Shown: positions 25,526-46,800, counted from the stretch's first letter. The stretch: 64,000 bases of DNA from an uncultured Methanosarcinales archaeon (GCA_964587045.1 CAZPJY010000001.1:1-64000), one strand, 5' to 3'. Notes: a model not told the origin generated them from the letters alone. A program made the numbers and translations.

Positions 25526-25822
25526 ATGGACAAAGGAATAATACTGGCGCTGCTCTTGATCGCAGCGGGGATGCAATTCGACCTATGGGTGCACACGTAC
25601 ACGCCGGTACAGCAGCAGGTCAGGGCATGCCTCGTGGACTCTGACGGCGACGGGTTTTACGACGTCGACGACAACTGCGACTTCGCCCCGAACCACGACC
25701 AGCTCGACGGCGATCGGGACGGCGTCGGCGACCTGTGCGACATTTGCCCACACTGGTACAACCCTGACCAGGGCAGCTGCAGGATGAGCGGCGGATGGGT
25801 AGGCAAGGTGGGAATGGTATGA
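25526..25822 (+). CDS. Small (98 aa) protein with N-terminal signal peptide or signal anchor and TSP3 repeats
   Basis: ATG lies 1 nt after the stop of protein A. MDKGIILALLLIAAG is a hydrophobic stretch, followed by DSDGDGFYDVDDNCDFAPNHDQLDGDRDGVGDLCDICP. Its TGA overlaps the next ATG (ATGA). Confidence 0.85.
   Translation: MDKGIILALLLIAAGMQFDLWVHTYTPVQQQVRACLVDSDGDGFYDVDDNCDFAPNHDQLDGDRDGVGDLCDICPHWYNPDQGSCRMSGGWVGKVGMV
25805..25812 (+). promoter_or_regulatory. Putative Shine-Dalgarno-like site for protein B
   Basis: AAGGTGGG lies a few nt upstream of the ATG at 25819. A GGTG core is typical of archaeal SD sites. Confidence 0.45.
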
Positions 25823-28800
25823 GAACGACAGGATTCATGGGACGTGCAGCGGCTTTGCTAGCTGTGCTCCTGCTCGCGCTCCCGATCACGGCTTCGTACC
25901 TCTTCGTCGAGCGTGACGGGATCGTTTACACAAACGACCCTGCTCCCACCATATACATAGAGTTCATCCCAGACTACGTCTCAGGGCTGGAAGGCTGGGT
26001 CTATGAGCGCGGGAACAGGAACAGGATAATCCTGAGACCCAACCAGTTCGCTCCCTGGCCGGCGCCTAGCAGGCCTTTCAACCTGTGGTACATGAACTAC
26101 ACCAACCCGGCGACCATGCTGCCTGAGGGTGAGTTCACCTTCGAGCTCCGCAACGCAAGCTCAGGAGGCAACTACATGGACGTTCCTTACATGGTGTTCT
26201 TCACAGTCGACACTGTAGGTCCGCCTCCGCCGTCGATAGTCCACCCCGCAGACGGAGAATTCATAACAGACAGCGAGGTGCTGGTCTACGGAACATCCGA
26301 ACCGTACTCAAACGTCACCGTAAGACTGTACAACGCGACCGTGTTCACTCCGGACAACCTCAGGCGCGAAGTGCAGGTGGCTTCGTACGGGACGTTCCAG
26401 CCATTCAACACCAACATATACGCCCTGAAGGAGATACTCGGGCCGCAGCAGATAAGGGTATCTGGCGACCTGTCGGCCTACGCGGGCTTGCAGGTGGAGT
26501 TCATGACCCATCCGGCGCCCCACTACAGGATAGAAAGCGCGTCGGGTTATGACGTCGTCAACGATGAGACCATAGTGAACCTGGTGACAGAGCTCTCAGG
26601 CCCCGTACGCGTGAACGACCAGATCAGGCTTTACACGTCGCCTTACCCGAGCGGGTATTTCGAGGCTACAATGCCGCTACCGCTGGGGGACTCGTACCTT
26701 ACCTCGAGGGCTACTGACCTGCTGGCCAACTCGAGCGGGTACTCGATGCCGGTGCACGTGGTTCGCGACCTCGGCGGTCCGAACATGACCGTCCTCTCTC
26801 CGCTGAGCGGAGCCGTGACCGGGGACGAGCTAGTCCAGGTCAGGATCATCATGACAGACGACACTTCTGTAGCCCTCAGCACCCTGTCGCTGACTACGGA
26901 TTTCGGAGTCTTCGGCTGCTCCAGCAGTGAAGTTGTGTGTACGCCTTCTACTGATGCGCAGTCTATAACCTTCAACTTCACGCCGACCTCTGAGTGGAGC
27001 TATGACACCCACACCGTGACCTTCGTAGGTGCCGACCTCGGCGGCGCGTCCACCCAGGACTCATGGTCCTTCGAGGTCAGGAGCGACGTTCCCTCCGACC
27101 CGCAGATAATCGTGCCGGGATCCCAATTGCACAACGGCATAATCTACACCACAGACGCGACACCTGAGTTCTACATCAACTTCACTAGGGATTCGGACGT
27201 CAGGCTGACACGCCTGTACCTCAACTTCGCGCTTGAGGACGTGCTCGGGGATTCCGAGGACCTCGGAAACGACGTCTTCAGGCTGATCCTGCCCGACCCG
27301 GTTGTAGAGCACGGAATGGGGGACTACGAGATACTGCAGATGAGCGCGCAGAAGATGCTCGGCGACTTCACCTTCGGACCAAATGGCACATTCTCTCAAT
27401 ACTTCGTCGTTGACACTACAAATCCGGTTATACACCTTGATAGTTCGTACGCGACGGTCACAGAGGACTTCATGCTGCAAGGTACGTTCACCGACAACCA
27501 TCTCGACCCGACAGGAGGTAACATAACCTTCTCGTTTAACGATGTCGTCTCAGGAATGCGGACGTTCGCTGCCGAGATAACCAGCTCTGACGAATGGAGG
27601 GTGTCTGTGGACCTCGACCCTGGAGGGTCTAGGACTGTGCCCATCACCGCTGCCATATGCGACAAGGCGGGCAACTGCGGAAGCGCCACGAGCTCTCTGG
27701 TCATCGACACAGGAGGACCGACCCTGACTGTGGATGACAGCCAGGCCCAAGGGTGGACCAACAGTCCGCCATTGGACGTGCTCCTGACCGCCACCGATGA
27801 GAGTGCGGGATCAGGCGTCTCATACATCCGGGTCTGCGAAACTTCCTGCCAGGATTATCCGTACTCAGGTCCGCTTCAGATGACATACTCCTCTGACAGG
27901 GATGTTACCGTAACGGCCACGGCTTATGATTTCGCAGGCAACCCATCAGGTCCTGTCACGTACAACGTGCAGATAGACACAACCCGGCCCGTGACGGGCG
28001 TCGTCGCAGAAGAGGCTGACCTGACGCCCTACAGCTCCGGAGCCTGGGCTGACCAGGACATCTATGTGATGTTCGATGCTGTGGACTCAGGCATAAGCGT
28101 TTCAGGCATCAACGACACGCGTTACTGCATCGATGCGGACAACACATGCGTTCCTGACGCATCAGCGCCTGCTGTCTTGGTGCTCAACGATTCATCACTG
28201 CATTACGTCAGGTACAGGTCAAGCGACAACGCAGGCAATGTCGAGGACGTACGATCCTTCAATTTCAACATAGACAGCATCTCACCTGTCCTGGAAGGTT
28301 ACCAGCTCACTCCTTCGGACATACTCATTCCGATAACTGAGAGGAATGGAGTATATTATTCAGGTGATCCGCGCATATTGCTCACCGGCTCTGTGACCGA
28401 GGCCCACCTGGAAAGCGTCACCGTAGAGCTGAATGGCGGATCTTCGCGCTCAGCCACAATCGTAGGCTCTGACTACCTGTCCCAGCTGAACCTGCCTGAA
28501 GGGCCTTCAACAGTCGTCGTTCGGGCGAGGGACCTGGCAGGCAACTTGGACAGCTACACCCTCAGCTTCATGGTAGACTCAACTCCTCCGGGAATGCAGC
28601 TGGTGAGCCCGAGGCAGCGGGTCAACACGACTGAACTGACCATGATCATCAGCACGACCAGGGACGCATGGTGCGAGGCATCATACGGCGCGACCGTAAG
28701 GAACATGTCATCATCGGACAACACAACGCATTCCTACAGTCTGACCATCCCGCCGTCTTCATACGACGTCGACGTCATATGCAGGGATGTGACATACGGG

Positions 28801-31800
28801 ACCTACTCTTCTGACACTTATACCTTCATCTACGACGTGACGCCACCCACCCTGACCCTGGACCTCTCCAACCCGTACTATCCGGGATCAATAGTCGCGC
28901 TTGAAGCAGGCGGAACGATAACCGACCTCCTCGTCAGCGCTGACGAGCCTGTGGTGTGCTCCTACGAGGGAGGGATGGACTACGTGATTCCGGGCGACAC
29001 CAACAACAGATCATACTACTACGGCATGACCCGCTTCACAGACCGCAGCTTTGCGAGGAACCACGCGCAGGACCTAACCATCCCAATAAATGACGACGGC
29101 ACTGACGGGACCTTTACCTACGTGGTCAACTGCGAGGACGAGGCCGGCAACTTCAGGAGTGGGGTCTACTTCCCGCCGTCCATAACCTTCATTGTCGAGC
29201 TAAACGAGCTGTACATATATGATGCGAGGCCCCAGGCGGCCGTGGACTCCCTCAACGTGCCGATCTCGTTCAGGACCAACAAGCTAGCGACCTGCACGGA
29301 GGACTCGAGCGGAGCCAACGCCCCCATAGGCGAGGGCACTCTGTTGCACTCAAAGACAATAACCTACTCAAGCGACGGGCAGAAGGACATCAACATCCAA
29401 TGCGTCGCGACAGAGGGTCCGCTACTGTCAGCCCAGGACCAGATCAGCTTCGTAATCGACACCTCACCGCCGACCGGGCTTTCCATCAGCATACCAGGGT
29501 CAGTCGATATCGGAGGCGTATGGAACGTATCAGGGTCGTTCACGCTGACGATGGGCGCCACTGACAGCCAGACCAACGTATCATCCTACACATACCAGCT
29601 CGCTGGCGTTGATTCCAGGCAGATGACGACCTCCCTCAGCTCTGTCAACTATTCCGGGCTTGCTGACGGGACATACATCTTCACCTTCTCGGCCTCGGAC
29701 TTCTTCGGGCACGAGAGCGCGGATGCAAGCTTCACCCTGCTCAGGGACAGCGAAGGCCCGCAGGTGGACATCACAAGTCCCGCCAACACATCGCTCCAGG
29801 ACGTGCAGGACGTCGCCATAACAGTGAGCGCGTCCGACACGGTCGGGCTGCACACGGTATGGTCAAATGACCTGGTCGTGTCCCACCAGTCGGGCAGCCT
29901 GTACGCTGGCACCTTCGCAGGCGCCGACGGGCAGCACACCGTCACGGTCTACGCCAACGACACCGCTGGCCACATGGCGAGCGACTCGGTCACCTTCACA
30001 ATCGACACGACGCCTCCCGAACCTGTGCATTTGGTCTCCCCCGATGACGGGGCCTACCTCAGAGGCAATGTCGTACTGAGATGGCAGGACCTCAGTGCCG
30101 ACGAGGCAAGCTACGTGGCTGAATACAGCACAAGCAATGATTTCAGCTCAGGCGTGGTCTCTCACACTTTGGGGCGCGACGCGACCAACATCTCCATACC
30201 TTCTCTGCTGACAGGCACAACGTACTACTGGAGGGTATATGCCTACGATGAGGCAGGCAATTCCGATTCGGCTTCAGCGGAGATAAGGTCATTTATCTAT
30301 GACAACGTCGCAGGGCCTGTCGTAATCGTCAGTCCGAGGGAAGATGCAATATTCAACACCACATCCCTCCTTGTAGAAGGCTTTGCGGAACCGGGCGCAA
30401 GCGTTGAGATAGTTGTGTACGACGAGGACCTCAACAGCGACAGCGCAACGGTCAGCGCCCAGGGGGTCGTAGCCCCGACAGCCCTCACTACAGTCGTCGC
30501 GACGGCCCGCGCAGGAGCAACCAACATAATGCTTGACGGCGACATGGCAAGCTACTCGTATGTCCAGTTCGCTGACCTTACTAATTATTATGGCATACGG
30601 AACAGCACGAGGATGGGTCCCTTCACCATCTTGACCCTGGATAAGCCGCTTGAGGAGTCTCCGAGGCAGTATGATACCGCTTTTGCGTACGCCACCAAAT
30701 CATTCACCGGGTTCTTCAGCTCGGACATGCCCTTCTCTGAGGGGTACAGCACGGTCTATGCGCGGGCGACTGACAATGCCGGCAACTGGGGCGATGACGA
30801 GGTGGCCGGTATCCTCGTGGACCTCCAGCCGCCAACGGTGAGCGAACCATCGCCCTCGCAGACCCTGGCCTCGGCAGGCACAGTATCTGCGATGCTCGCA
30901 GACACTGGAGGCTCAGGCATAGGCAGGTACGCCATGTACATCAACGGGACGCCCGTGGGCTCGACGCTGAGGGGAGGCCTTCTGGAGCACAGGGATGCTT
31001 TGGGTGACGGCAGCTACCAGGTCCAGGTATTCGTGTGGGATGCTGCAGGCAACATGGGTCAACTTGGATGGTCCTTCACGCTGGATTCCAGCCTGCCGAC
31101 CGCTACTGTTTCTGTCGAAGACGCGGTCGTGGATACGGATTACGATCCGGACAGGTACTATGTTGGCTCTGACTCTGCCACTGCGACCTACGTGTTCGGC
31201 TCTGATGTTGTGGTGGAGTCCGCGACGGTCTCTAGCGGCTCGCTTGTGCAGAGCCAGGTGTCTGCCAGGGAGTACGCCTTCGAGCTGTCAGGCCTCAGGG
31301 AAGGGTCGAGCACACTGACAGTGAGGGCGAGAAACGACATCAGCGGCAGCACGGCAATACCCTTCCAGGCAGAGATAATATCGGACACGACCAATCCCTA
31401 CGGCTTGAGGTTCACATCCATACCGGCAATCGCAAACCACGCGGCTGCAATCCCGGTGTCCGGCGCTTTCACCGAAACCAACCCATCATCAGCAACGCTC
31501 TCAGGCGACATAGACCCTGTTGCGCTGGAGACATCCTCACCCTTCACCGCCACCATCAACCTGCTGGGAAGCGACGGAGTAAAAGAGGTCATACTTACGG
31601 TGACAGACGTACTCGGCCATGAGGCCCAGGTTTCGAGGAACATAACCCTCGACACCACCCAGCCGGACGTGACCGTTACTTCAGCAGATCTCGTTGAGAT
31701 AGGTGGCAGGTGGTTCGCAATAGATGGGACCATGGACCTGCTCGTGGCCACTGAGCCTTCAACCATGATCAGCATCTACGCCAACGGCACCCTGGTCAGG

Positions 31801-34800
31801 AACGCGGTAACCGACTATGCGGGCCACTACAGCTACACGTTAAACAGCTTGTTCGAAAACTACAATGAGCTCTACGTGACTGCGACTGACGCCGCCGGCA
31901 ACACGGGGACGTCGAACACGGTTGAGGTATACGTGGACAACACCGAACCCCAGGTGACCTTCCTGAGCCCAGAGGAGGGGGAAGTGGCTGATGACATGGC
32001 GCGGTCGGTACAGATAGATGTAGAAGACGCTCTCTCAGGCGTGGACCCAGCAAGCGTCAGGCTGATAATCACCAACTCACAGAATGGAGCCACAGACGTT
32101 ACGGGCTGGCTGCAGTTCTCCTACGCAGATGGCAGGATGACGTTCTCGCCGCTCCCGTTCCCGGTATCGGAAGGAGAGAACACCCTAACTGTTAGGCTTA
32201 GCGACATGGCGGGAGTGCCCGGAGGGGACTCCATCACCTTCAGGGTGGACACCCAAGCGCCGGCAGAGCCCATGTTCACCCTGCTCAGCAACAACGATGT
32301 TCCTGTGGCGATACAGGACAGCAGCCTGCACAATCTGCCTGAAGACTACAACATATTCAGGTTCGATTTCGAGGAGCAGGTGGACGTAAGCTCCTTGTCG
32401 GTCTCGAGAGACGGTTCCCCGGCTGGCTTCTCCTACCTTGTGGCATCAGACACTAACCGCCTGGAGCTGATCCTCTCAGGATTGCTTTCTGAAGGCGAAT
32501 GGGCGGTGTCCTTCAACTTCGTTGCGACAGACAACGGACATGCCAACAGCCTCGACTTATCTTTTACCATAGACAGGACAGCGCCGGGCCAGGTATCCCA
32601 GACCTTGCCGGCTAACGGAGCCTTTACGCCATCCCCTGTAACACTGTCATGGTCAGAACTCGGGAGCGACGAGGCGGCCTACAACATCGAGGTTTTCAGG
32701 GACGCTTCCCTGACCGACCGCGTGACAGGCCTGCAGTCCAGCGTCGGCCCAGACACGACAAGCATTAGCTACGACAGGCTGAGCGACGGACAGGTCTACT
32801 ACTGGCGCGTATACGCAGTCGACGCGGCTGGAAACTCGCAGCCAACCGCTGCGAGTGTCAGGTCCTTTACTCCGGACAGCAGCGCAGGACCCTTGGTGCT
32901 GCTCTACCCAAGAACCGGTCTGGAGACCAACGCCTCTGAAATAGAGGCAGAAGGCTTCGCCGAGCCGGGCTCGCAGGTAACACTGAGCATGGGCACTGAG
33001 TCCGACACGGTCACGGCGTCAGGCATAGTATCTCCCGATCTGACAGTGGCGGTCTACGAGCCGGCAGTACCAGGAAGCAATGTGGTGAGGCTTTCAGGAG
33101 AGCTGGACGCCTACAATGGGTACTTCCTCCAGTTTGACGACCTGCACTATTACCACATAGTCGGCGTGCAGGTGCAGCCGTCCCTCTTCACGCAGATGAT
33201 CCTCGACCGCCCGCTGGCAACCGGCAGCTCGCCAAACGCGCGACTCTACGCGGCAAAGGACTTCACAGGATTCTTCTCCACCCAGATGGCCCTCGATCAG
33301 GGGTATAACAACATCTTCGTGCAGGCTGTCGACAGGGCCGGAAACCCCGCGCAGGCGTCGGCGCAAAACATCCTTTACGACCCCTCTGCGCCTGAGGCGG
33401 TGAGCTGGAGCCCGCAGGACACGCTGGCGGATTTCAGCAGGATAGAGCTGATAATATCAGACGGCCCGCTGGGCGCCTACTCTGGCATATCATATGTGGA
33501 GATGTACCTGGACGGGACGCAGGTCACCCCGACCCGCTCCCCGAGGCCGCTGGGAGAGGAGCTGGTCTATTACAGGCCCGGCGACCTTGAGGACGCAACC
33601 CACGAGGTGGAAGTGTACATGGGGGACGAGGCCGGGAACTACGGCTACTACTCGTGGTCCTTCACGCTGGATTCCAGCCTGCCGACCGCTACTGTTTCTG
33701 TCGAAGACGCGGTCGTGGATACGGATTACGATCCGGACAGGTACTATGTTGGCTCTGACTCTGCCACTGCGACCTACGTGTTCGGCTCTGATGTTGTGGT
33801 GGAGTCCGCGACGGTCTCTAGCGGCTCGCTTGTGCAGAGCCAGGTGTCTGCCAGGGAGTACGCCTTCGAGCTGTCAGGCCTCAGGGAAGGGTCGAGCACA
33901 CTGACAGTGAGGGCGAGAAACGACCTTCCGGGAAGCAGCTCCTTACCCTTCTATGCGGATTTGATGGTAGACACCCTGCCCCCAGACAGGCTAAGGATGA
34001 GCAGCCTGCCAGGCCTCGTTAACTACTTCAGCCTGCCTGTTACAGGCACCTTCACCGAGCCGAACCCGCAGTCGGTCGAGCTCTCAGGCGACTTGGACTC
34101 CGCGAGCGCCAGCCTGGCACCAGGAGGCTTCTCAGGTCAGGTCCAGCTCGCTTCTGGCGACGGCGAAAAGGAGGTCACCGTGACAGTCGAAGACGTCCTA
34201 TCCCATTCCTCAACTGCCTCGGCCCATGTGGTGCTTGATACCCAGGCGCCACCCATCACCATATCCACCAATGACGTGATCGATGTGTCCGGGGACACGT
34301 ACGGCACATCAGACAGGATAACCGTGCTGGCGCAGTGCGAGACCAACTCGCTGCTTGACCTGACCGTAAACTCGGTCACGACTCAGTCTGACAGGAGGTG
34401 CGCTGAAGGGTCCTACACGTTCTCCAACATCCCGCTGGTGGAAGGCTCAAACGAGATATCGGTCGATGCCACGGACGCGGCCGGCAACTCCCAGGAATCC
34501 AACACCCTGTCAGTATATGGGGACAGCACCCCTCCGACGGTAGGGTTCGGCAACCCGCTCGACGGGCAGGTCCTGACATCTTCGGCGGTGACTGTTAGCG
34601 CAACAGCGACTGATTCGGGATCTGGCGTGGAGGACTTGAGGATGTGGTTCAACGGCATTGAGGTCACGACTTGGCCCCAGTACTCGGTCTCGGGAAGCGA
34701 AATCACTTTCGATGTGCCCGTAGCGTTGATTGTGCCGGGAATGGTTAACACGGTAGAACTATTTGCCGTTGACAGCGTCGGAAACGGCGCCTCGTCCCAG

Positions 34801-37800
34801 CTCACCTTCAGGTACGACCCAGACGCGCCTTCAGAGCCGGTCATGAACCTGGTGCACCTTGCAGGGACCAGCAGCCTGGAGATAGAGAGGGGCGATTACA
34901 TCAATGCCATATCATCCTACAACATATTCAGGTTCGAGTTCGACGAGACGGTCGACGTGACCGGCTACACGGTCACCCTTGGCGGATCCAACGTCGCGGG
35001 AATATCGACCTCTGCTGCTTCGTCGACAGACCTGTTCGAGATATTCCTTACTGGAGCCGAAGCCCTTTCTGAGGGCAACTGGTCGGTCTCCCTCAACTTC
35101 GAGGCGAATGACAATCATGACACAAACAGCTTTACCACCTGGTTCGTGGTAGACAGGAGCCCCCCATCCGCGGTCTCGCTCACATTAGATGGAGGTGCCA
35201 CCTATACGAATTCGAGGCAAGTCACGGTAAGCGGAAGCGCGAGCGATTCGCAGAGTGCCATCCAGACCATCGAGCTCTCCAACAACGGGGCCACCTTCAC
35301 CCCGTTCCCTTACGATGAGCCGCCTGGAGCGTGGACCCTTGCGGGAGAAGGTTTGATGACTGTACATGCAAGGTTCAGGAGCCTGGCGGGGCTGCTATCC
35401 AACGTCATAACATCGCAGATAACGGTCGACACGACGCCTCCGCCTGTCCCCAAGCTCTACTCCCCGCCCGCCGGAGAGTCTTGCACGTCCCAATCAGAAT
35501 ACCAGGTCATAGGATATGTCGGAGAGTCCGACGTGACTGTCCTTATCATGGACGAACGGGGCAACAACTACTCAAGCCAGGTCGTAACGTACGGATCGCT
35601 TTGCTCAGGAGACCTGCCAGTCACGCGGGCGTCAGGAAATCTGGTCTACGTTTCGGATGCGGTCTCGCCCTTCTTCAGCGCTGGCAACTATATTCAGTTC
35701 AGCGGCCATTCCAGGGACAACTTCGAGAGGTATTACATAACCAGCGTCAACGCGATACCAGGCGACGACGAGGTCGTACTCCAGACACCATTGGAAGGTT
35801 CTGTCCGCAACGGCGAGCTCGTGAGGGTGTGCGATTCAATGTACCCCTCAGGATGGTTCAACATCACCATAGGACTGGACGCGACCAACAGCATACGGGC
35901 AGTTGCATACGACCACCTGGGGCTCATCGGCCCACTGACGGCAGAACGCATCCTGAGGGTGGACAGCGAACCGCCCGTCGCTTCTGACGGCTCTCCCTCA
36001 GGTCTGACAGGCGACTCATCCCCGACGATATCCGCAAGGGTGGTGGAATACCCAGCAATTGGGGGCTCAGGATTCGGCACTATTGAGATGAGGATCAACG
36101 GGACAGCGGTGCCGCTGCTGCGCGTCGGCGATGTCATAAGCTACGTCCCCGGCGTTCTGGCCGACGGGCTGTATTACGTCGACGTCTACGTCAGCGACAA
36201 TGCAGGCGGCTCGGACACGCTTTCCTGGAACTTCACCATAGACTCCAACGTCCCCCAAATCAACATAACGGTCGATGACTCAACCCCCTATCCGGGCTTC
36301 GAGCCCATGAGATATTACATCGATTTGACGAATGCTTCAGTCATGACCACATTCAGCGAAGAGTCCAGGGTCACAGAGATAGGAATAGTCGGTCTGAGCA
36401 TGACCTATGACGTACCCGGAACAGGATCAGAGATCCGCACCGACATAACAGGCCTCTCAGAAGGGCCCAACACTTTCACCGTAACAGCCGAGAAGCTGCT
36501 CTCAGGAGTGGCCTTCGGGCCGCCCGGAGACGCGCAGGCCCAGATATGGGTCGACACCATGGCGCCCAGGGATGTGGCGTTCAGCCTCTCGCCCACCCAG
36601 GTTAACAGCCGCTACATGGTCCCCCTGCAGGGATCGTTTTCTGAAGAGAACGTCCTCAGGGTGGAGCTTGACGGTGATGTGGAGAACGGGCCGGTCACAG
36701 CACTCAACGGCGCCAGCCTGTTCTCAGGAACTGTCAACCTGACATCAGGCGACGGCCTCAAGACGGTGAACGCCGTTGTGATCGACATGGTCGGGCACAG
36801 GACCACAGCATCGACGCAGATAAACCTTGACACGAACATGCCCAACGCGACCATCGTGGCTGTCGGAGCTGTCGATGTGTCGGGCCAACTGTATACCGCG
36901 TCAAGGTCAGTCGAGATAGGTGTCACATCAGACCCCCTAGCAAGCCTGGAGCTGATAGTCGACGGTGTCACCAGGTCGTCCGGCGCCTCGGACGCTTCAG
37001 GGCAGTACATGTTCACATTCTATACAGAGGAGGGTCCGCATGTCATCCAAGTGAATGCGACAGACTCTGCGGGGAACACCGGCGAGTCGAACACAGTCTA
37101 CCTGCAGGTGGACCTGACAGGACCGCGAATCGAATTTGTGAGCCCGGATGACGGCCAAGTTGTCATATCGCCCAATACAACCTTGAGGATGCACGTTAGC
37201 GACGCGGATGCCGGACCGCTGCCTCAAAGCATCAGCCTGCTGGTCAACAGCGTCGAGGTGGCTGGAGGAGCGGGATACAACTACTCTGACGGCACTGTGA
37301 CGTTCAGGCCTGAACCCTACCCAGTTGCCGAAGGTTTCAACACTGTCGAGTTGAGTATGACAGACGTCTTGGGCAATCCCAGCTCGGGCTCGATCGAGTA
37401 CAGGGTCGATCCGAACGCTCCGGAACTCCCGATCCTGTTCCTGACGAGCGCGGACCTCGGGCAGGTCGGAGTCGCGAGGGGGAGCTACCTGGCAACGCCC
37501 TCAGAATATGACATCTTCAGGTTCATCTTCTCAGAGGAGGTGACATTGACCGGAGAATCAATCCTCCTGGACGGTTCGCCTTCCGCGCACACCTCTTGGT
37601 CGACCACCAACACGCTGCAAAGCGACCTTGTCATCGGTTCAGGCCTGTCAGAGGGCAACTGGTCAGTGTCCTTGGATTTCGAGGCATCTGACAACGCCCA
37701 GTCGAGTAGCTACACCACTTGGTTCGTGGTCGACAGGACGCCGCCCGGAGTGGTGAGCCTTGCCTCGCCCGCTTCTGGCTCCATTCACAACGGCAACGTG

Positions 37801-40800
37801 ATGCTCGCATGGGAAGACCTTGGAGAGGACGAGGTCGGCTACAAAGTCGAACTATCCACCGAACCGGAATTCGCATCTCTGATGACCGGAAGCCCGCACG
37901 AGCTCGAGGACGGCGTGACCAGCCTCGGCATACCGGCATCCCAGTTCACCAGCGGCAGGACGTATTACTGGAGAGTGTATGCGCACGACCTCGCAGGCAA
38001 CGAGGATGCCTATTCGGCGACAGTATGGAGCTTCACATTTGACGACACCATAGCTCCCGTGCTGATAATCTCGCCTCCGGCCAATACTTTTACAAACGAC
38101 AGCGCAGCTCAGGTTGAGGGCTTTGCTGACCCCCTGTCAGCTATGGAGATCGTGCTGACCAGTTCACAGGTCACGACCGCAGAGAGCTCGGCAGAGGGCT
38201 TCGTCGCTCCGATGGGAACTGCGGCAGTTCTCGAGACGGCACGTTCAGGGGAGAGCGCCGTCCGCATAGCAGGCGACGTTTCAGCATACCAGTTCGTGCA
38301 GTTCAGCGACCGCAACTACTATGAGATCGTCGCAGCGCCCATATTCGGACCTTATACAGAGATAACCCTCGAGAAGCCGCTTGATGAGACCGCAGCTGCA
38401 GGTTCGGAGGCGAGATTCTACACATCAAGGATGTTCACAGGATTCTTCTCCGAGCCCATGACCTTGGGCGAAGGCTCAAACACGGTGTTTGCAATGAGCA
38501 CGGACGCCGCAGGCAACACGGCCCACGATGAGGTTCTCAACGTCATGCTCGACACATCGGGTCCGCAGATAACAGACATGAGCCCGACTGCAACCTTAGC
38601 AAGGGTCAGTTCGGTCTCAGCCCTCGTGTCAGACGACTCAAGCGGCGTCGCCGCTGCCACCATGTACGTCAACGGTGAGCAGGTGGCCGCAACCCTTAGG
38701 AGTGGCCTGGTAGAATACAGGTCAAGCCTGGCGGACGGGTCCTATTCTGTGCTGCTCGTTGTACGCGACCTGGCAGGCAACTACAATACGGCCACTTGGG
38801 GATTCACTGTGGATTCCGACCTCCCAGGCGCAACCATAACAGTCGACGATTCCATCGAGATGCCCGATTACAGCCCGGACCGCTACTACATTAACTCAAG
38901 CTCCCCGACTGTGAACGTTGAGTTCGACGCTGATGTTGTCGTAGAATCAGTAGGGGTGGCAGGAGGCACACTCACTGAGACCCAGATGTCAGCGGGCAAT
39001 TACGTCTACGAAGTCTCAGGACTCAGCGAGGGACAGCACCTGTTCAGCATGACCGCGAGGAAAGACATCGATGGTAGCAGCGCAGCTCCGTTCTCTGCCA
39101 ACATCGTCGTCGACATCTCGGCTCCTGACACCCTCGTACTGAGCCTGACCCCGCTCACAGCTGACAGCGAAGTTGAGATAACAGGATCGTTCAGGGAGAC
39201 CAACTTCGACAGGATGACAATTACAGGCGACATAACTACCTCAGATGTACATCTTGAGGGCAACAGGTTCGCAGGCACAGTCACACTCTCCCCAGGAGAC
39301 GGGCCAAAGACGGTAAGGCTTGATGTCTACGACCTGGTCGGCCACCGCTCACATATGGAGTCCACGACAGTAGCTGACACTCAGGCCCCAAGCCTCACTG
39401 CTGAGGTGTTGGGCGTGGTGGGTGTTGGTGGTAGGGATTATGTTGCTGATTCGCGTGTTGATGTGGGTGTGGTTTGCGAGTCTGGTCTTGTTTTGACGCT
39501 TATGGGTGGTGATAGGGTCAGGTCTGGTGTTTGTTCTGGTGGCTCGTTTGTTTTTGCTGGTGTTGGTATTGCTGAGGAGTTTAATGAGTTGTGGGTTGAG
39601 TCTGTTGATTTGGCTGGTAATGTTGGAGTGTCGAATCATGTTGTGGTGTATGGTGATGTGACTGGTCCGTCTGTTGTGTTTGTGCGTCCGCTTGATGGTG
39701 ATGTTGTGACTGATCCTGAGGGTGTTATTGAGGTTGCTGTTGGTGATGGCGGTGCTGGTGTTGATGGTGCGAGTGTGCGTTTGGTGGTTAATGATTGGGA
39801 TGTTACTGGCTGGCCCGGCTACACATACACATCCGGAATAATCTCATTTTCCCCAGCGCCTTTCCCGGTCCAAAACCATTCCAACGAGGTGGTCGTGTAC
39901 GTAGAAGACCAGCTTGGCAACCCTGCTGAGCAAAGGATGATATTCATAGTAGACCAGGACGCGCCGGCAAGGCCATCAATAACCCTGACCGACCCGACTC
40001 TTCCGCCGATAGCTCTATCTGACGGTAGCCATTTGAGCATAGAGTCATCCTACAATGTGTTCGAGCTCTCATTCGCAGAGGCCGTGAACGTGACAGGATA
40101 CTCATTGAGGCTGGGAGGCGTCGATGTCACGGATGTCAGAGCATCCCCGACGCAAGCAATCACGGATTTCAGCCTGGGCATGCTTGGTGCAGAACCCCTC
40201 GAGGAAGGCGGATGGGAGCTGACAGTCAACTTCGTCGCGGTGGACAATGCCCACACGAACAGCATCACCATCGGTTTCAACGTGGACAGGACAGCCCCCT
40301 CGACAGTCGCGCAACAGTCGCCCCAGGACTCATCGATTCTCGGTGGGGACATAGAGTTCTCATGGGACCATTTGGGTGATGATGAGGAGTATTACATCCT
40401 TGAAATCTCGACAGACCAGTCATTCTCAGGATTGGTTTACGAGACACGGGTTGCGAGCGAGGTGAGCAGCGTCGGAGTTTCCGATCGTGAGTTCGTACAG
40501 GGGCAGGCCTACTACTGGAGGGTATACGCCGGGGATGGCGCTGGCAATGAGGAGCCTGACACAGCAGACCAAAGAAGCTTCACATACGATGCGGCTGCAG
40601 GGCCTGTCATCATCTACAGGCCAATAACAGGCTATGACACTAACGAGAGCGCGATCGCTGTCGAGGGCTTCGCTGAGCCTTATTCACACATAGACCTGGC
40701 TGCGGTCGACTACCTGGGGACATACAATGACACCACCACAGCGTCAGCATCTGCGCCCGGAGCGCCAGACGCAACCCTGCAGATAGTCGATTCGGCACTT

Positions 40801-43800
40801 TCAGGATCCGAAATCGTAAACCTTGACGGCGATCTGCGGGCTTATGAGGGACAGTACCTGCAGTTCTCCAACCCAAGAGAATATTATATTATAACAGGAG
40901 TCAATTACATTCCCCTGCAGTACTCGGAAGTCGAGCTGGACCGGCCGCTAACTTCGAGCTTCTCAGGATCAGCATACCTGTATTCGGCCAAGACTTTTGC
41001 AGGCTACTACTCGGCATCGCTCACCCTGACAGATGGCTCCAACCGCATCCTTGCAAGGGCGACAGACAGGGCGGGCAACTGGGCAAGCGCCTCGGCTGGG
41101 GACATCACATATGACACCTCTCCACCTTCAATTTCAGAAGAGACACCCAAGTACACGACCGGAGAGACCTCACTAAGGGTGTCTGCTCTACTATCAGAAG
41201 ACGGGTCAGGACTGTCCTACGCGGCCATGGATCTGGACGGCGTCCCCATGGCGGTGACTCTTGCCTCATCGGGAGGGGACACACTCGCGTACTACCAGGC
41301 CAGGAACCTGGGCGACGGGACGCACCACGCGAGCATCACTGCCTGGGACAGGGCCGGCAACTCCGCATCATCATCCTGGGAGTTTGTGGTCGACACCCAG
41401 TTCCCGACGGCGACCATCACAGTGCAAGGGGCAGTGGTTAGGGAAGCGTACGACCCGGACAGGCACTATCTCGAGTCCAGCACGCCAAGCATACGCGTTT
41501 CCTTCGACAGCGGCGTCGTGGTCGACTCGGCGGGCATGTCAGGAGGCACTCTGACCCAATACCAGGTATCGTCCAGCGTTTACACCTACAATTCCTCAGA
41601 GCTTACCGAGGGCATACACAGGTTCACGATACGCGCAAGGAAGGACCTGCCCGGAAGCAGCCCGATCCCGTTCTACGCAGATGTGATAATCGACAACTCC
41701 GCGCCTTCCAACCTTGCCATAACGACCCTGCCATCCCCTGTGCAGGACCCGGTCGGAGTGCCTTTGGCAGGCTCATTCACAGAGACCAACTTCGAAGGCC
41801 TGACGGTCGGAGGCGACATATCAGGATATGATGTCGGGACTTCCGCCAACAGGTTCTCAGGAGATGTGGACCTCGAAGCCGCAGACGGCATGAAAGCAGT
41901 CGTCGTCACCGTCTCGGACATCCTGGGCCACAACTCCTCAGTTGAGGGCGAGGTGGAAGTGGATAGCGAGGAGCCACAACTCACTGCTGAGGTGTTGGGC
42001 GTGGTGGGTGTTGGTGGTAGGGATTATGTTGCTGATTCGCGTGTTGATGTGGGTGTGGTTTGCGAGTCTGGTCTTGTTTTGACGCTTATGGGTGGTGATA
42101 GGGTCAGGTCTGGTGTTTGTTCTGGTGGCTCGTTTGTTTTTGCTGGTGTTGGTATTGCTGAGGAGTTTAATGAGTTGTGGGTTGAGTCTGTTGATTTGGC
42201 TGGTAATGTTGGAGTGTCGAATCATGTTGTGGTGTATGGTGATGTGACTGGTCCGTCTGTTGTGTTTGTGCGTCCGCTTGATGGTGATGTTGTGACTGAT
42301 CCTGAGGGTGTTATTGAGGTTGCTGTTGGTGATGGCGGTGCTGGTGTTGATGGTGCGAGTGTGCGTTTGGTGGTTAATGATTGGGATGTTACTGGCTGGC
42401 CCGGCTACACATACACATCCGGCGTCATAAGCTTCGATCCCGAACCGTTCCCTGTAAGGGAAGGCCCCAACTCGGTCACGCTTTACTCATCAGATTTGCT
42501 TGGCAATCCTGGAAGGGGTTCCATCTCCTTCGTCGTCGACACCCTGGCGCCGAACGCTCCGGCTCTGAGTCTGAGTCACGACGCCGGCACTTTCCCACCG
42601 CTTGAGCTGTCAACCCTCATGACGGCTGACGCCGCCTACAACCAGCTGTCATTCGAGTTTGACGAGCTGGTCAACATAACAGGGTACTCGGTCGAGTACG
42701 GCGGTGTGGAATACACCAACATCAGGACTTCAGCCACCAGTTCAGTCGACGTGTTCAACATAGGGCTGCTGGGCACCGACCCCCTCAGTGAGGGAGAATG
42801 GGAAGTCAGCGTGAATTTCGTTGCCGTTGACAACGCTCACGCAAACAGCTACTCGGCGTCATTCACAGTGGACAGGACTCCACCAGTTGCGGGATCACTT
42901 CTGCTCAACGGCGGAGACGAGTACTCGACCACGTCGGGCCTGCAGGTCCAGGGATCAGCGAGCGATGCGGTCACGTCGGTTGAGGTGATCGAGCTCTCGA
43001 ACGATGGCAGAAGGTTCACGCCCTTTGCCTATACCGACCAGCCCATCCTGTGGGACGTCGCCGGAGAGGGCTTCCACAGGGTCTACGCCAGGTTCTCAGA
43101 CATGGGAGGGCTGCTCTCAGCAACTATAAACTCCTCAATAACCGTCGACACCATCGGTCCTGCCGCCCCAGTAATATACTCGCCCCCAGCAGGCGAGAGC
43201 TGGACATCGCTCTCCTCATACAACGTGATAGGGTACGTCGGCGAGTCAGATGTTGATATCGTGCTGTTCGACGAATCCGGCCAAAACCTATCGGTGCAGC
43301 ATGTGGCATACGACTCAGTATGCTCGGGGACTATCAACATAGCAACCGCAAGCGGAACCACAATACTCGTTCCGGACGCGGCAGTCCCGTATTTCATGGA
43401 AGATAGCTTCGTCGAGTTCAGCGGCCACAAGAGAGCCAACTTCGAGAGGTACATGATAACCTCTGTCAGGAGCATGCCAGGCTATGACGAGGTCACCCTC
43501 GAAGAACCTCTCGAAGGCGTGGTCAGGAGCAATGAGGGAGTCGTCATATGCGACACCCGCTACCCGGCAGGATGGTTCAACATATCCGTGCCGTTGGTAG
43601 ACAGGACATCTATCAGGGCTGTTGCCTACGATCGCCTGGGGATAGAGGGCGGCGTATCGGACGCCCGAGTACTCGTGAGAGATGTCACCGCTCCCACGCT
43701 GACGTACCTGCAGCCTGCAGCAGACACAGTCACCGCACAGGCAGTGCCGTCGGTAATATTGAGGGTCTCGGACACCCAGAGCGGGGTAGCAGATGCGCAG

Positions 43801-46800
43801 CTGACAGTCGATTCCGTAGGGTACAGCTGCGGAGACCTGAGATGCACCAGCCTCGGACAGACTATGGAGATCGAGTTCAACGCCGTATCGCTGCTGGGCT
43901 CAGCATTGGGCTACGGGACGCACTCATTCGACCTGACAGTGACTGACGCCGCCGGCAATCCGCTGAACTTCAGCTGGAGCCTGGAGATAAGCTCGAATGT
44001 CACTCACGAGCCGACCCTGCATGTATTAGGCGGAACCGCGCATGAGGGAGTATGGTACGTCGACAACATGGACCCGGCAATAACGGCAGCCTATGAGGAT
44101 GACGCGCCCTCGCTCGTCCACCTCGAGCATGCCGGTTTGGGATTCGAAGGTATGGGACTGGACACGGACCAGCCGGTGAACTACGCGAGGGCGGACAATA
44201 TCACTTTCGGAATCATATTGCAAACGCCGGCCCTGCAGGAAGATGCGACCTACCAGCTCAACCTCGTATCATACAAGGATGTCACGACAGGGGAGTCGGC
44301 CAGGGGATACCATTACTTCCCAATGCGCTTCGATACAATCGGGCCCTTCGTCAACTTCTCGAGCTCCCCCCTGCCCAGCACTCTGACCACCTCAGACGTC
44401 TCGGTGTCCGGATGGTGCAGGGATTACAACATGGACTACATCGAGCTAACCGGGGACGTATCACCGACAGTCACGCTATGCGGATCCAACGGGAGGTGGG
44501 CAGCATCGGTCGACCTGGTCGGGATAGAGCAGGGCGCCAGGACCATCACCGTCACTGCCTACGACATGGTAGGGCATACCTCATCGGCGACTTCGACCAT
44601 CCTGTTCGACTTCCAGCCGCCAACAGTCCAGGTTGCTGCGATATCAGACGACAACGACACCACCGAGGACGCCATCGATGATGACGGCCTGGTCTACCTA
44701 ACAGGCCTGAACAACTCGGGAGGCGCGCAGTGGTGCATCATCAACTGGGGCGACGGCAGCCCGTCACCGGAGTTTGCGGCATCCGTGACCTCCAGAATGC
44801 ATTCGTACGCGGAAGGGACCTGGACAGCGAGCTATTCCTGCAGGGACGCTGCCGGCAACTGGGCTGTCCCGGTCACGAAGACCATCGACGTCGACATGAA
44901 CGGCCCCAGCATAACGATATCCAGCGTGGTGCCTGCAACAACTAACAGGTTCGCCAATGCAACCATAATACTGGATGAGACGCCTGCAACCATGTCAGTG
45001 AGTGTCATAGCTGCTGACGACAGCTGCGACAGGACGAGCATGCAGGGCACCACCTACAGGTACGCCTGCGATGTCTCTAACGTATCCATGGAGGGCACGC
45101 TAACCCTGAGGGTGATGGCGGCTGACGCGCACGGCCACCAGACCACTGCCCAGAGGCAGGTCGGTGTGGATACCTTGCCGCCCACAATATCCGTGCCTGA
45201 CACGGAGTTCGTGACAGCAGACACGACGCAGAGGGTGAGCATCCAGACCAATGAGAACGCCCACTGCAGGTGGTCCACCGACCAGGAGAGCTACTGGGCA
45301 ATGCTCGAGCAATTCACAACGGGTGAGGGGACGCGCAACCACGCGACAGACCTGGCGTTGGAGCCGGGCCTGACCACCTACTACTTCGCATGCGCAGACG
45401 CCTACGGAAACGCGAACTCCGCCGGGCAGCTGGCCTCCCTTACAGTAGACTTCAGGAACGAGCCGCCAAGCCTTGACAACATCACCATCTCACCGATCGC
45501 CTACAGCGACCTGGTGGCGTACTACACTGACACGATGGACATCACGGTGTCAGGCACGTCCGATGTCGGTGCGCAGATACGCCTGCTCGTGGACGGGACC
45601 CTGCGTCCAGGCTCGATAACTGTTGCCGAGCCGGAATACCTCAACGTCCCAGTCTCACTCGCCGGGTTCGGCGCGGCAGACCCGTCTCTGGTGGAAGGCT
45701 CGACCATCAGGTTTACAAGCGGCATGGACCTCGACGTCGTCTTGGTTGGCGGCGCCGAGAACTACACCTTGCCCAACAGGAACAGCATCGAAGTGGACTT
45801 CCCAACACCCGGGACCTACACTTTCGGCCTGACCGTACCGCCAGCGACAGCCGTGCTGGACACACTCACAGTCACGGTCTACCAGGCCGACACAAGGTTC
45901 AGCTACGACGCCAGCGTCTCGGAGGGCCGGCACTTCATAATGGTGCGCGCGACCGACGAGTGGGGACACACAACTGATTCCGACCTCTACCAGCTCTATG
46001 TGGATACGCTGGATCCTGTGATCACCTTGCAGTCTCCGATATCGATAACCGGCGACACCTCGCCTGACATTGTGCTAACCTTAAGCGATGCGGTCTCGGG
46101 CCTGGACATGGGCTGGACCTCACTGACCGTGATAGCCAACGAGACCTACGAGTGCACCAATGTGGACTTGGGAAGCAACGCGTGCACCCCGGCGAGCGCC
46201 GAGGTCATATGGGACGGCGAGGAGCTCACCTTCACGACCGGCGACCAGCTGACGTTCCAGGACACAGGTGAGGTCTCTCTGATAGCTGCTGCCACGGATA
46301 ACGTCGGGCATGCCGCATCTGAGCAGTTCAGCTTCGCTGTCGACACCTCAGCCCCGACTGTACAGTCGATTAGCATATCAGAGGCGTTTGATAGGGGCAG
46401 CGTGTGGTACTCCAGGAGCGCACAGCCGCTCGCTACGATAGGCTTCGACAGCCCGGTGGTGGTTGAAGGCGCTTCCATGGGAGGGGCTGCCAACACTTCA
46501 GAGTCAGGCCTGCTAACCCGGTTGGTGTGGCCATACAGGGCGTTGGCTGAAGGCGAATACTCGCTGGCTGTGAACGCAAGCCGCATCGGCGGAGGCACCA
46601 TGGGTTCTTGGACCTGGAGCTTCGTGGTTGACCTCAACGACCCGCAGGTGGACATCAGCCCGGACGTTCCGACGCTTGTCGGCGGCAGCCAGCTGGAGGT
46701 GTACGGAAGCTGCTACGACGCCAACATGGACCGTATCGAGATAGAGACCCCGTCCAACAGCTTCGTGGCGGACTGCGAGCAGGGGACCTACAACGCATCG

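What the first reader, a model, noticed from the sequence alone, without database searches (positions are those of the whole stretch)
39394..42422. Duplicated coding segment rewritten toward G and T (apparent A->G / C->T hypermutation) inside a giant gene
Seen: two identical 443-bp copies (39394-39836 and 41980-42422) are about 80% G+T by hand count, with nearly all third codon positions T or G. The surrounding 64 kb is C-rich and prefers C-ending codons. The segment is not foreign DNA: it is clearly homologous to normal-composition sister modules in the same protein (about 31650-32130, 34240-34700, 36830-37310). The amino-acid differences run the way A->G and C->T would push them: DVIDVSG->GVVGVGG, TDAAGNTGTSN->VDLAGNVGVSN, ASVRLII->ASVRLVV. 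The frame and the structural motifs (C...C, DxAGN, YGD.T.P) survive. The last 25-30 nt of the identical tract are not skewed. Established: C->T and A->G on one strand is the signature of deamination of single-stranded nucleic acid. Inference: this tract is repeatedly copied between repeats through a mutagenic, strand-asymmetric route (ssDNA or RNA intermediate, deaminase or error-prone polymerase), which would be a repeat-coupled diversification process distinct from DGRs.
Basis: partly seen in the sequence, partly recalled or inferred. Interest (0 to 1): 0.85.

Follow-up and report, generated by a model that had tools for sequence, protein, structure and literature searches.

The report
G/T-recoded identical repeat in archaeal gene
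A giant surface-protein gene of a tiny uncultured archaeon holds two letter-identical stretches whose silent positions are almost all G or T, a pattern like the unexplained bacterial "GRINS" repeats, and among related genomes such stretches go with the repair enzyme NucS, which may be what causes them.

Summary
Real. 39394-39836 and 41980-42422 are identical (443 bp, 77% G+T; 415-bp core 80%; third codon positions 95% G/T against 42% in the rest of the gene). They lie in register in two of five tandem Ig-like units of a 7,780-aa ORF, and a separately assembled contig spans copy 2. This works like GRINS (Nivina 2021). The skew and identity tests are met; the >500 bp test is borderline. The scan has found GRINS-like repeats on other DNA many times, archaea included, and one note proposed NucS.

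A->G/C->T-only hypermutation by a deaminase, RT or Y-family polymerase is not supported. Silent sites carry excess T that transitions cannot give, and no RT or Y-polymerase was found.

Best reading: copies overwrite each other, and NucS, which rejects only G/T, G/G and T/T mismatches, makes this a one-way ratchet to G/T on one strand. In 156 Woesearchaeota-order genomes NucS and MutS never co-occur. Strong skew tracts occur in 26 of 62 NucS, 1 of 53 MutS and 3 of 41 other genomes. Weak points: the tree-corrected test is underpowered, and the T-over-G excess is unexplained.

The parts
25795..49137 (+). Giant ORF, 7,780 aa, with a hydrophobic N-terminus and tandem bacterial-Ig-like domains; five tandem units about 2.58 kb apart
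   Evidence: Pfam Big_13, Big_3_3 and Glucodextran_B on 37000-44499; unit spacing
39394..39836 (+). Copy 1 of the identical 443-bp tract (unit 4); codes most of one Ig-like domain and part of the next
   Evidence: model of 39376-39900 has pLDDT 80.5, nearly all beta strand, best solved matches SiiE and other adhesins
39399..39813 (+). G/T-recoded core of copy 1 (80% G+T; third positions 95% G/T)
39814..39836 (+). Identical but A/C-leaning tail of copy 1 (7 of 7 silent positions A/C)
41980..42422 (+). Copy 2 of the identical tract (unit 5); core 41985-42399
   Evidence: spanned with both flanks by a contig of run X1
31654..32196 (+). Sister module, unit 1, normal composition, 38% protein identity to the tract
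34237..34761 (+). Sister module, unit 2, normal composition, 35-36% protein identity
36823..37353 (+). Sister module, unit 3, normal composition, 35-36% protein identity
31069..31338 (+). Second identical repeat in the same gene (270 bp, partner 33655-33924), weakly G/T-shifted on the same strand; possibly an early stage
   Evidence: residual +0.15, z 3.0
33655..33924 (+). Partner of 31069-31338
14365..15173 (+). Two near-identical blocks (14365-14615, 14893-15173) in the upstream giant ORF, weakly G/T-shifted on the same strand
   Evidence: residual +0.10 and +0.11, z 1.9 and 2.1
17980..18791 (+). Partners of those blocks (17980-18230, 18511-18791)
   Evidence: residual +0.12 and +0.11

Best explanation
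A GRINS-like gene-conversion repeat whose skew comes from a NucS mismatch filter. (1) Shown: two tandem Ig-like units share one 443-bp block to the letter while their flanks are only 43% identical in protein. Inferred: the block is copied between the units again and again (gene conversion). (2) Shown: the genome has an intact NucS/EndoMS and RadA, and no MutS or MutL match. [quoted passage not shown] (4) Inferred: when a strand from one copy anneals to the other copy's lagging-strand template, any variant that would replace a G or T of that template by A or C forms a G/T, G/G or T/T pair and is rejected, and every other variant passes. The template strand (the leading-strand sequence, + here) can gain G/T but not lose it. 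Over many rounds silent sites go to G/T and tolerated residues drift to Val and Gly, while selection keeps the frame and the fold. The skew is a by-product of homogenisation, not a diversity generator. That it is a conversion-linked GRINS-type repeat: about 0.9. That NucS filtering is the cause: about 0.55.
For: Identity and skew share their boundaries to within 5 nt at the left end and 23 nt at the right. The skew is graded by codon degeneracy, and amino-acid shifts match the GRINS description: V 35 vs 16, G 25 vs 12, T 4 vs 15, Q 0 vs 4 against the mean of the sisters. Other intragenic repeats are skewed too: C7 and C20 with A/C on the coding strand, C10 and C13 with G/T on it, so transcription does not set the side. 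All four repeat pairs in the window are G/T-shifted on +. In 12 of 13 chosen tracts on 9 contigs the G/T strand matches the sign of the contig's weak background skew. NucS scores above the NF003270 cut-off; RadA is present; MutS_V and MutL give no match in a genome rated 100% complete. Order survey of 156 genomes: none has both strong NucS and MutS_I. Six or more hits of an anchored 25-codon G/T pattern occur in 26 of 62 NucS, 1 of 53 MutS and 3 of 41 other genomes; by family 23 of 44, 1 of 36 and 1 of 23. A second pattern agrees: 800 or more hits per Mb in 15 of 62, 0 of 53 and 2 of 41. The contrast holds in three GC bins (6/13 vs 0/20, 12/22 vs 0/14, 8/22 vs 0/8), and NucS and MutS genomes are interleaved on an RpoB tree (21 changes, 6 forced by well-supported branches). 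UDG makes no difference within NucS genomes (12 of 30 with, 14 of 32 without). NucS specificity: PMC4838380, PMC6159521, PMC11109965 (passages). In vivo filter of more than 500-fold on annealed oligos: PMC11551767 (section 14). nucS deletion impairs gene conversion in Haloferax: PMC11276520 (passages).
Against: The filter alone does not explain T 62: G 21 at four-fold sites. In a toy equilibrium built on the gene's GC-rich background, both the filter and deamination give G at least as common as T, so an extra G->T flux is needed. The independent-pairs test has only 6 supported pairs (median p 0.5; at the six-hit threshold none goes the wrong way, but the MutS exception G138 was not on the tree). 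36 of 62 NucS genomes have fewer than six hits; G138 (MutS) and G009, G133, G170 (no strong NucS match) have many. The patterns count overlapping matches and detect skew, not repeats. In several NucS genomes the skew lies in loci with no repeat inside the fetched stretch. The GRINS paper reports GRINS in 53-90% of genomes of five bacterial phyla, most of which use MutS (own knowledge), though at a far lower skew threshold. A 99.6% tandem duplicate on C3 is unskewed. The leading strand is inferred from weak skew: only 4 contigs exceed 2 SE, one C20 tract disagrees, and the tracts were picked after looking. No unskewed orthologue was found to read the substitution spectrum. A 2026 preprint suggests NucS repair is reduced during recombination in mycobacteria (PMC13061034, passage).
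Confidence: 0.55

Rival explanations
1. Damage to single-stranded DNA. Repeats spend more time single-stranded during resection or slippage; C->U, A->hypoxanthine, oxidised G and base loss on the exposed strand push it to T and G; conversion copies the result. NucS could still matter by making the breaks.
For: Predicts T over G, as seen (62:21). No UDG match in this genome. The three young repeats on this contig are compatible with transitions only (p 0.63). The side agrees with the contig's background skew.
Against: A is depleted more than C in young repeats. UDG presence does not lower tract counts. On its own it does not predict the NucS/MutS contrast.
Confidence: 0.2
2. Error-prone repair synthesis. 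Conversion copies one strand with G:T wobble or tautomer errors (A->G and C->T on the new strand) that escape correction where MutS is absent. This is close to a mechanism proposed in the GRINS paper.
For: Polymerases make G/T mismatches more often than C/A (PMC6159521, passage). Tautomer model in PMC8256042. Reduced NucS repair during recombination suggested in PMC13061034.
Against: Transitions only cannot give the T excess. Genomes with neither MutS nor strong NucS have few tracts (3 of 41). No Y-family polymerase match.
Confidence: 0.13
3. Skew first, conversion second: a locally skewed, low-complexity stretch arises for another reason and then recombines more readily (second hypothesis of the GRINS paper).
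For: Skewed tracts without an assembled partner exist in this genome (C20 start, C27) and in relatives.
Against: Identical repeats with weak skew exist in the same gene and lean the same way, which suggests identity comes first. The C20 tract abuts a contig end, where a partner could be unassembled.
Confidence: 0.07
4. Import from a donor with G/T-rich codon use, then duplication.
For: Some genomes of the order have broad G/T skew.
Against: The closest relatives of the tract are its in-gene sisters. Other genomes give 35% identity or less in short or weak matches and metagenomes one 44-residue match at 45%. The tract is in register with both flanks. Unrelated repeats of the same genome are skewed as well.
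Confidence: 0.03
5. Sequencing or assembly artefact.
For: Short-read assembly of a 443-bp exact repeat; copy 1 is not covered in run X1.
Against: The skew follows codon degeneracy and keeps a 7,780-aa frame. A separately assembled contig carries copy 2 with both flanks. There is no N near the tract. Each of the two units needs this segment.
Confidence: 0.02

Closest known systems
[quoted passage not shown]
   Same: Near-identical duplicated coding region in a modular giant gene; intense, correlated GC and TA skews, strongest at third positions; Gly and Val enriched, Thr and Gln depleted; abrupt edges; opposite skews can sit side by side; attributed to gene conversion; mechanism unknown.
   Different: Host is a DPANN archaeon (the paper covers bacteria, amoebae and choanoflagellates). 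The gene is an Ig-like surface protein, not a PKS. The identical block is 443 bp, at or under the 500-bp limit. Skews (about 0.5) and identity (100%) are far above the thresholds. The parts I read link GRINS number to ruvA, and a library search for GRINS with NucS found no paper.
EndoMS/NucS non-canonical mismatch repair (PMC4838380, PMC6159521, PMC11109965, PMC8228993: passages; PMC11551767: abstract, passages and section 14)
   Same: The genome encodes a full-length NucS above the NCBIfam cut-off. The enzyme's substrates (G/T, G/G, T/T; not A/C, A/A, C/C) split bases exactly into the G/T and A/C classes seen in the tract.
   Different: In the passages I saw, these papers treat replication errors, oligo recombineering and homeologous recombination; none ties NucS to skewed repeats.
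Diversity-generating retroelements and deaminase hypermutation (APOBEC, ADAR type); features recalled, not read
   Same: Repeat pair inside a surface-protein gene; apparent A and C loss on one strand.
   Different: Copies are identical rather than template and variable; no RT match; changes include transversions and fall mostly on silent sites.

Membership tests
GRINS | Duplicated region with more than 80% DNA identity to another region of the same cluster or genome | tested here: met
   100% over 443 bp
GRINS | [quoted passage not shown] | tested here: met
   0.50/0.51 and 0.53/0.51; gene-wide mean 0.09/0.13
GRINS | Length above 500 bp | tested here: inconclusive
   The identical block is 443 bp. 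My ungapped re-implementation of the paper's window rule gives 540 nt counted to window ends and 390 nt counted by window starts. The authors' code was not run.
GRINS | GC and TA skews correlated, strongest at third codon positions, coding function kept (descriptive) | tested here: met
   r 0.91 and 0.88; 0.95 at position 3; open frame and Ig-like model
GRINS | Gene conversion: paralogous copies closer to each other than to orthologues | tested here: inconclusive
   Tract 100% identical inside units whose flanks are 43% identical in protein; no orthologue found
Diversity-generating retroelement | Reverse transcriptase gene | tested here: not met
   PF00078: no match in a genome rated 100% complete
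Diversity-generating retroelement | Template and variable repeat differing at adenines | tested here: not met
   No differences between the copies
Deaminase hypermutation (APOBEC/ADAR-like) | Transitions only | tested here: not met
   67 of 89 four-fold sites pyrimidine, 45 expected; the three young repeats alone are compatible with transitions
Deaminase hypermutation (APOBEC/ADAR-like) | A polynucleotide DNA deaminase in the genome | tested here: inconclusive
   PF00383 finds three genes: TadA/nucleoside-like (below cut-off), ComEB/dCMP-like (below cut-off) and cytidine deaminase (above one cut-off). APOBEC-type families were not searched.
EndoMS/NucS repair host | Full-length NucS, with MutS and MutL lacking | tested here: met
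   NF003270 248 bits, cut-off 216; PF00488, PF01624 and PF01119 no match
EndoMS/NucS repair host | This NucS cleaves G/T, G/G and T/T but not A/C, A/A or C/C | not testable with these tools
   Shown for Thermococcus, Corynebacterium, Streptomyces and Mycobacterium enzymes

The most novel reading that the evidence does not exclude
GRINS in general are the footprint of NucS. Because NucS rejects only G/T, G/G and T/T pairs, any sequence that is often converted through a strand annealed in a fixed replication orientation is ratcheted to G/T on one strand. This would be a strand-polar kind of biased gene conversion, distinct from GC-biased conversion. It would explain why GRINS are commonest in Streptomyces, why they turn up in archaea, and why in this DPANN order, where NucS and MutS replace each other, the tracts follow NucS. 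Some NucS genomes may carry the same bias across much of the chromosome.
Probability: 0.45. Interest if true: 0.85.

Novelty: new variant of a known kind. Interest (0 to 1): 0.58.

Why it matters
The GRINS paper left the cause of the skew open. This locus is an extreme case outside bacteria, and its order offers a natural experiment, because NucS and MutS did not co-occur in 156 genomes and are interleaved on the tree. If NucS filtering is the cause, the question becomes testable with one knockout and a two-repeat reporter. Skew intensity would then also flag which gene segments are being homogenised and in which direction they are replicated. The repeat itself is not a new kind of element, and the scan has met many like it.

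Tried and rejected
Substitution spectrum against the three sisters: silent sites look saturated, so directions cannot be read. Close orthologue: 23 of 60 other genomes of the order gave only weak matches. The metagenome scan gave two loci with one 44-residue match, and an exact DNA pattern scan of genome contigs gave none (the window's own genome may be left out there). Reads: only one run held the stretch, as low-depth contigs; zero cover over copy 1 proves nothing.

First survey pattern (51 positions, up to 3 mismatches): confounded by low-complexity linkers. By my reading of the frames, of its 30 sampled loci 11 of 15 from NucS genomes were third-position skews in ordinary proteins, and 7 of 7 from MutS genomes were low-complexity K/E/P-type stretches. 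I therefore added an anchored pattern. UDG loss as the driver: rejected within repair groups; over all 156 genomes UDG-positive ones have slightly more hits (p 0.04). GC content as the driver: the contrast holds in three GC bins.

A G/T-then-A/C polarity inside repeats: only suggestive (window tail p about 0.04; halves of other repeats mixed). Transcription as the side-setter: rejected, both coding-strand signs occur. Toy equilibrium: does not separate filter from deamination and fits neither T excess.

Paper searches: 'keto skew'+repeats+archaea and a six-term DPANN search gave nothing relevant. GRINS+NucS gave 0 papers. 'genetic repeats of intense'+archaea gave one NRPS-engineering preprint, seen as a listing only. 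PMC12999951 on archaeal skews has no occurrence of GRINS or repeat. The library lacks most subscription journals, and the GRINS supplements, which I did not read, may list more hosts or associated genes.
Full report
OBSERVATION. The two stretches 39394-39836 and 41980-42422 are identical over 443 bp, 2,586 bp apart, 76.7% G+T. The core 39399-39813 is 80% G+T, and GC and TA skews over the block are 0.53 and 0.54. Both lie in frame in ORF 25795-49137, 7,780 aa, built of bacterial Ig-like domains. G/T share by codon position is 0.82, 0.63 and 0.95 in the 138 core codons against 0.57, 0.43 and 0.42 in the rest of the gene. No other of 1,274 crude gene calls exceeds 0.75 over such a window. The last 23 nt are identical but lean to A/C. 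A contig of public run X1 spans copy 2 and both flanks with one difference outside the tract; copy 1 is not covered at that low depth, and the run may be the source sample. Grading by codon degeneracy and an intact frame argue strongly against a sequencing artefact.

ANATOMY. The gene holds five tandem units about 2.58 kb apart. The tract occupies the same place in units 4 and 5, whose flanks are only 43% identical in protein; the matching segments of units 1-3 are 35-38% identical to it and of normal composition. A model of the recoded region, built on a four-row alignment, is nearly all beta strand with mean pLDDT 80.5 and its best solved matches are Ig-like adhesins such as SiiE (E 6e-5). 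Residues drift to Val (35 vs 16) and Gly (25 vs 12) and away from Thr (4 vs 15) and Gln (0 vs 4). The host is a 1.6-Mb archaeal genome in 50 contigs. Its RpoB has Woesearchaeota/Nanoarchaeota records among its closest named relatives, at up to 81% identity; many other hits carry a generic 'uncultured Methanosarcinales' label.

IT IS A PROPERTY OF REPEATS IN THIS GENOME. The strongest G/T or A/C tracts genome-wide are direct repeats or a contig end: this pair, a pair on C7, a pair on C20, the start of C20, and Cys-rich repeats on C10. On C7 and C20 the coding strand is A/C-rich, here and on C10 and C13 it is G/T-rich, so transcription does not set the side. All four repeat pairs in this window are shifted to G/T on the + strand: +0.10, +0.11, +0.15 and +0.48. 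In 12 of 13 tracts on 9 contigs the G/T strand matches the sign of the contig's background third-position skew, averaged over genes of both orientations. That suggests replication direction, but only four contigs have a background beyond two standard errors, tracts on one contig are not independent, and I chose them after looking. Not every repeat is skewed: a 99.6% duplicate on C3 is not.

Transitions keep the purine share of four-fold sites. The tract has 67 pyrimidines of 89 where 45 are expected (z 4.7); T 62, G 21, C 5, A 1. In the three weak repeats of this contig A falls to 10 of an expected 29 and C only to 45 of 54; their purine share alone is compatible with transitions (p 0.63), while pooling with the C13 repeat rejects it (p 0.003). 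No RT or Y-family polymerase matched. Three deaminase-domain genes resemble nucleoside, dCMP and cytidine deaminases. There is no UDG match, which keeps single-strand damage alive as a rival.

WHAT IT IS. An earlier scan note named GRINS, and I read parts 1-4 of 5 of that paper, PMC8256042. Identity, skew, correlation and amino-acid shifts match. The length rule (above 500 bp) is borderline: 443 bp exact, 540 or 390 nt by my version of the window rule. I therefore call it GRINS-like rather than a strict member. The scan index holds 102 findings in at least 84 genomes with that word, several archaeal. I found no paper on archaeal GRINS or on GRINS with NucS in the searched library.

HOW IT MOST LIKELY WORKS. 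The lead to NucS came from note e1-6986045 on bacteria; I tested it on other genomes. This genome has full-length NucS and RadA, and no MutS or MutL match. NucS cleaves G/T, G/G and T/T best and hardly A/C, A/A or C/C (passages of PMC4838380, PMC6159521, PMC11109965). It interferes with homeologous recombination (PMC8228993, passages), and its loss impairs gene conversion in Haloferax (PMC11276520, passages). [quoted passage not shown] Inference: if conversion between the repeats goes through such an annealed strand, a resident G or T on the template can never be replaced by A or C, while the reverse passes. The leading-strand sequence is ratcheted to G/T, which is the side seen if + is the leading strand here.

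SURVEY. I searched 161 genomes of the order (the window's own and 160 drawn at 90% completeness or more), then dropped the own genome and four flagged unpublished, leaving 156. NucS was counted at E below 1e-25; 12 genomes with weaker matches were not counted as NucS. No genome has both NucS and MutS_I. An anchored pattern of 25 codon-spaced G/T positions hits six or more times in 26 of 62 NucS, 1 of 53 MutS and 3 of 41 other genomes; by family 23 of 44, 1 of 36 and 1 of 23. A longer unanchored pattern gives medians of 174, 55 and 32 hits per Mb. UDG does not matter within groups. On an RpoB tree of 108 genomes (58 NucS, 42 MutS, 8 other; all 26 high NucS genomes included on purpose; G138 absent) the two systems need 21 changes, 6 forced by well-supported branches, and the contrast holds in three GC bins. 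Fetched examples in NucS genomes include skewed repeats 87-100% identical (G079) and more diverged ones (G030, G142, G152).

AGAINST. The independent-pairs test has six pairs and is not significant. More than half of NucS genomes have few hits, and four genomes without strong NucS have many. The patterns measure skew, not repetition, and in some NucS genomes skew covers loci with no repeat in the fetched stretch. Neither the filter nor deamination yields T three times G in a toy model. GRINS are also reported in phyla that mostly use MutS (the MutS point is my own knowledge). One preprint argues for reduced NucS repair in recombination (PMC13061034, passage). No orthologue was found to polarise changes.

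VERDICT. A real, extreme GRINS-like conversion repeat in a DPANN archaeon; not a deaminase or retroelement diversifier. The element is a variant of a known kind that the scan has seen often. The added value is the NucS/MutS contrast within one order and a per-base ratchet that one knockout can test.

Noticed in passing
window 60656-60665: A 10-N scaffold gap lies where ORF 49138-60777 (3,879 aa) overlaps ORF 60669-66291 of the contig (1,874 aa) in another frame; they are probably one gene of about 5,700 aa.
   Followed up: partly
window 1-64000: The window is almost wholly giant Ig-like genes on one strand: at least 8,507 aa (open at the contig start), 7,780 aa and the split gene above, about 4% of a 1.6-Mb genome.
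   Followed up: no
window about 25526-25822: A short reading frame between the first two giants starts with a hydrophobic stretch and carries Asp/Cys-rich repeats like those at the end of the upstream giant.
   Followed up: no
G000 whole genome: No match to UDG, MutS, MutL, RT or Y-family polymerase in a genome rated 100% complete; NucS at C8:47449-48207 ends in a clamp-box-like motif (motif form recalled).
   Followed up: partly
156 genomes of the order: NucS and MutS1 never co-occur and are interleaved on the RpoB tree, which suggests repeated replacement of one mismatch-repair system by the other; 41 genomes have neither at these thresholds.
   Followed up: partly
RpoB fragments of 108 genomes (L093-L202): Of the 14 lowest G/T shares at four-fold sites of the RpoB coding strand, 13 are NucS genomes and none MutS; NucS genomes also have higher four-fold GC (median 0.33 vs 0.22).
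   Followed up: no
G138 (one contig; L088), G079, G143: Pattern hits fall on one strand only or nearly so: G138 528 vs 0 with broad G/T skew over its first 20 kb although it has MutS; G079 39 vs 0; G143 47 vs 0. Unusual for bidirectional replication.
   Followed up: no
G000:C10:33800-34700: Cys-rich 79-aa repeats in which the inner copies are G/T-recoded over part of the unit while outer copies keep normal codons; silent differences include A->T and G->T as well as C->T, in small numbers.
   Followed up: partly
G000:C20:23461-24294: An A/C-skewed identical pair inside a 340-aa protein that looks cytoplasmic and basic, so the effect is not limited to surface proteins; family not searched.
   Followed up: no
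G000:C3:55351-56315: A 99.6% identical tandem duplication with no skew, a possible recent duplicate.
   Followed up: no
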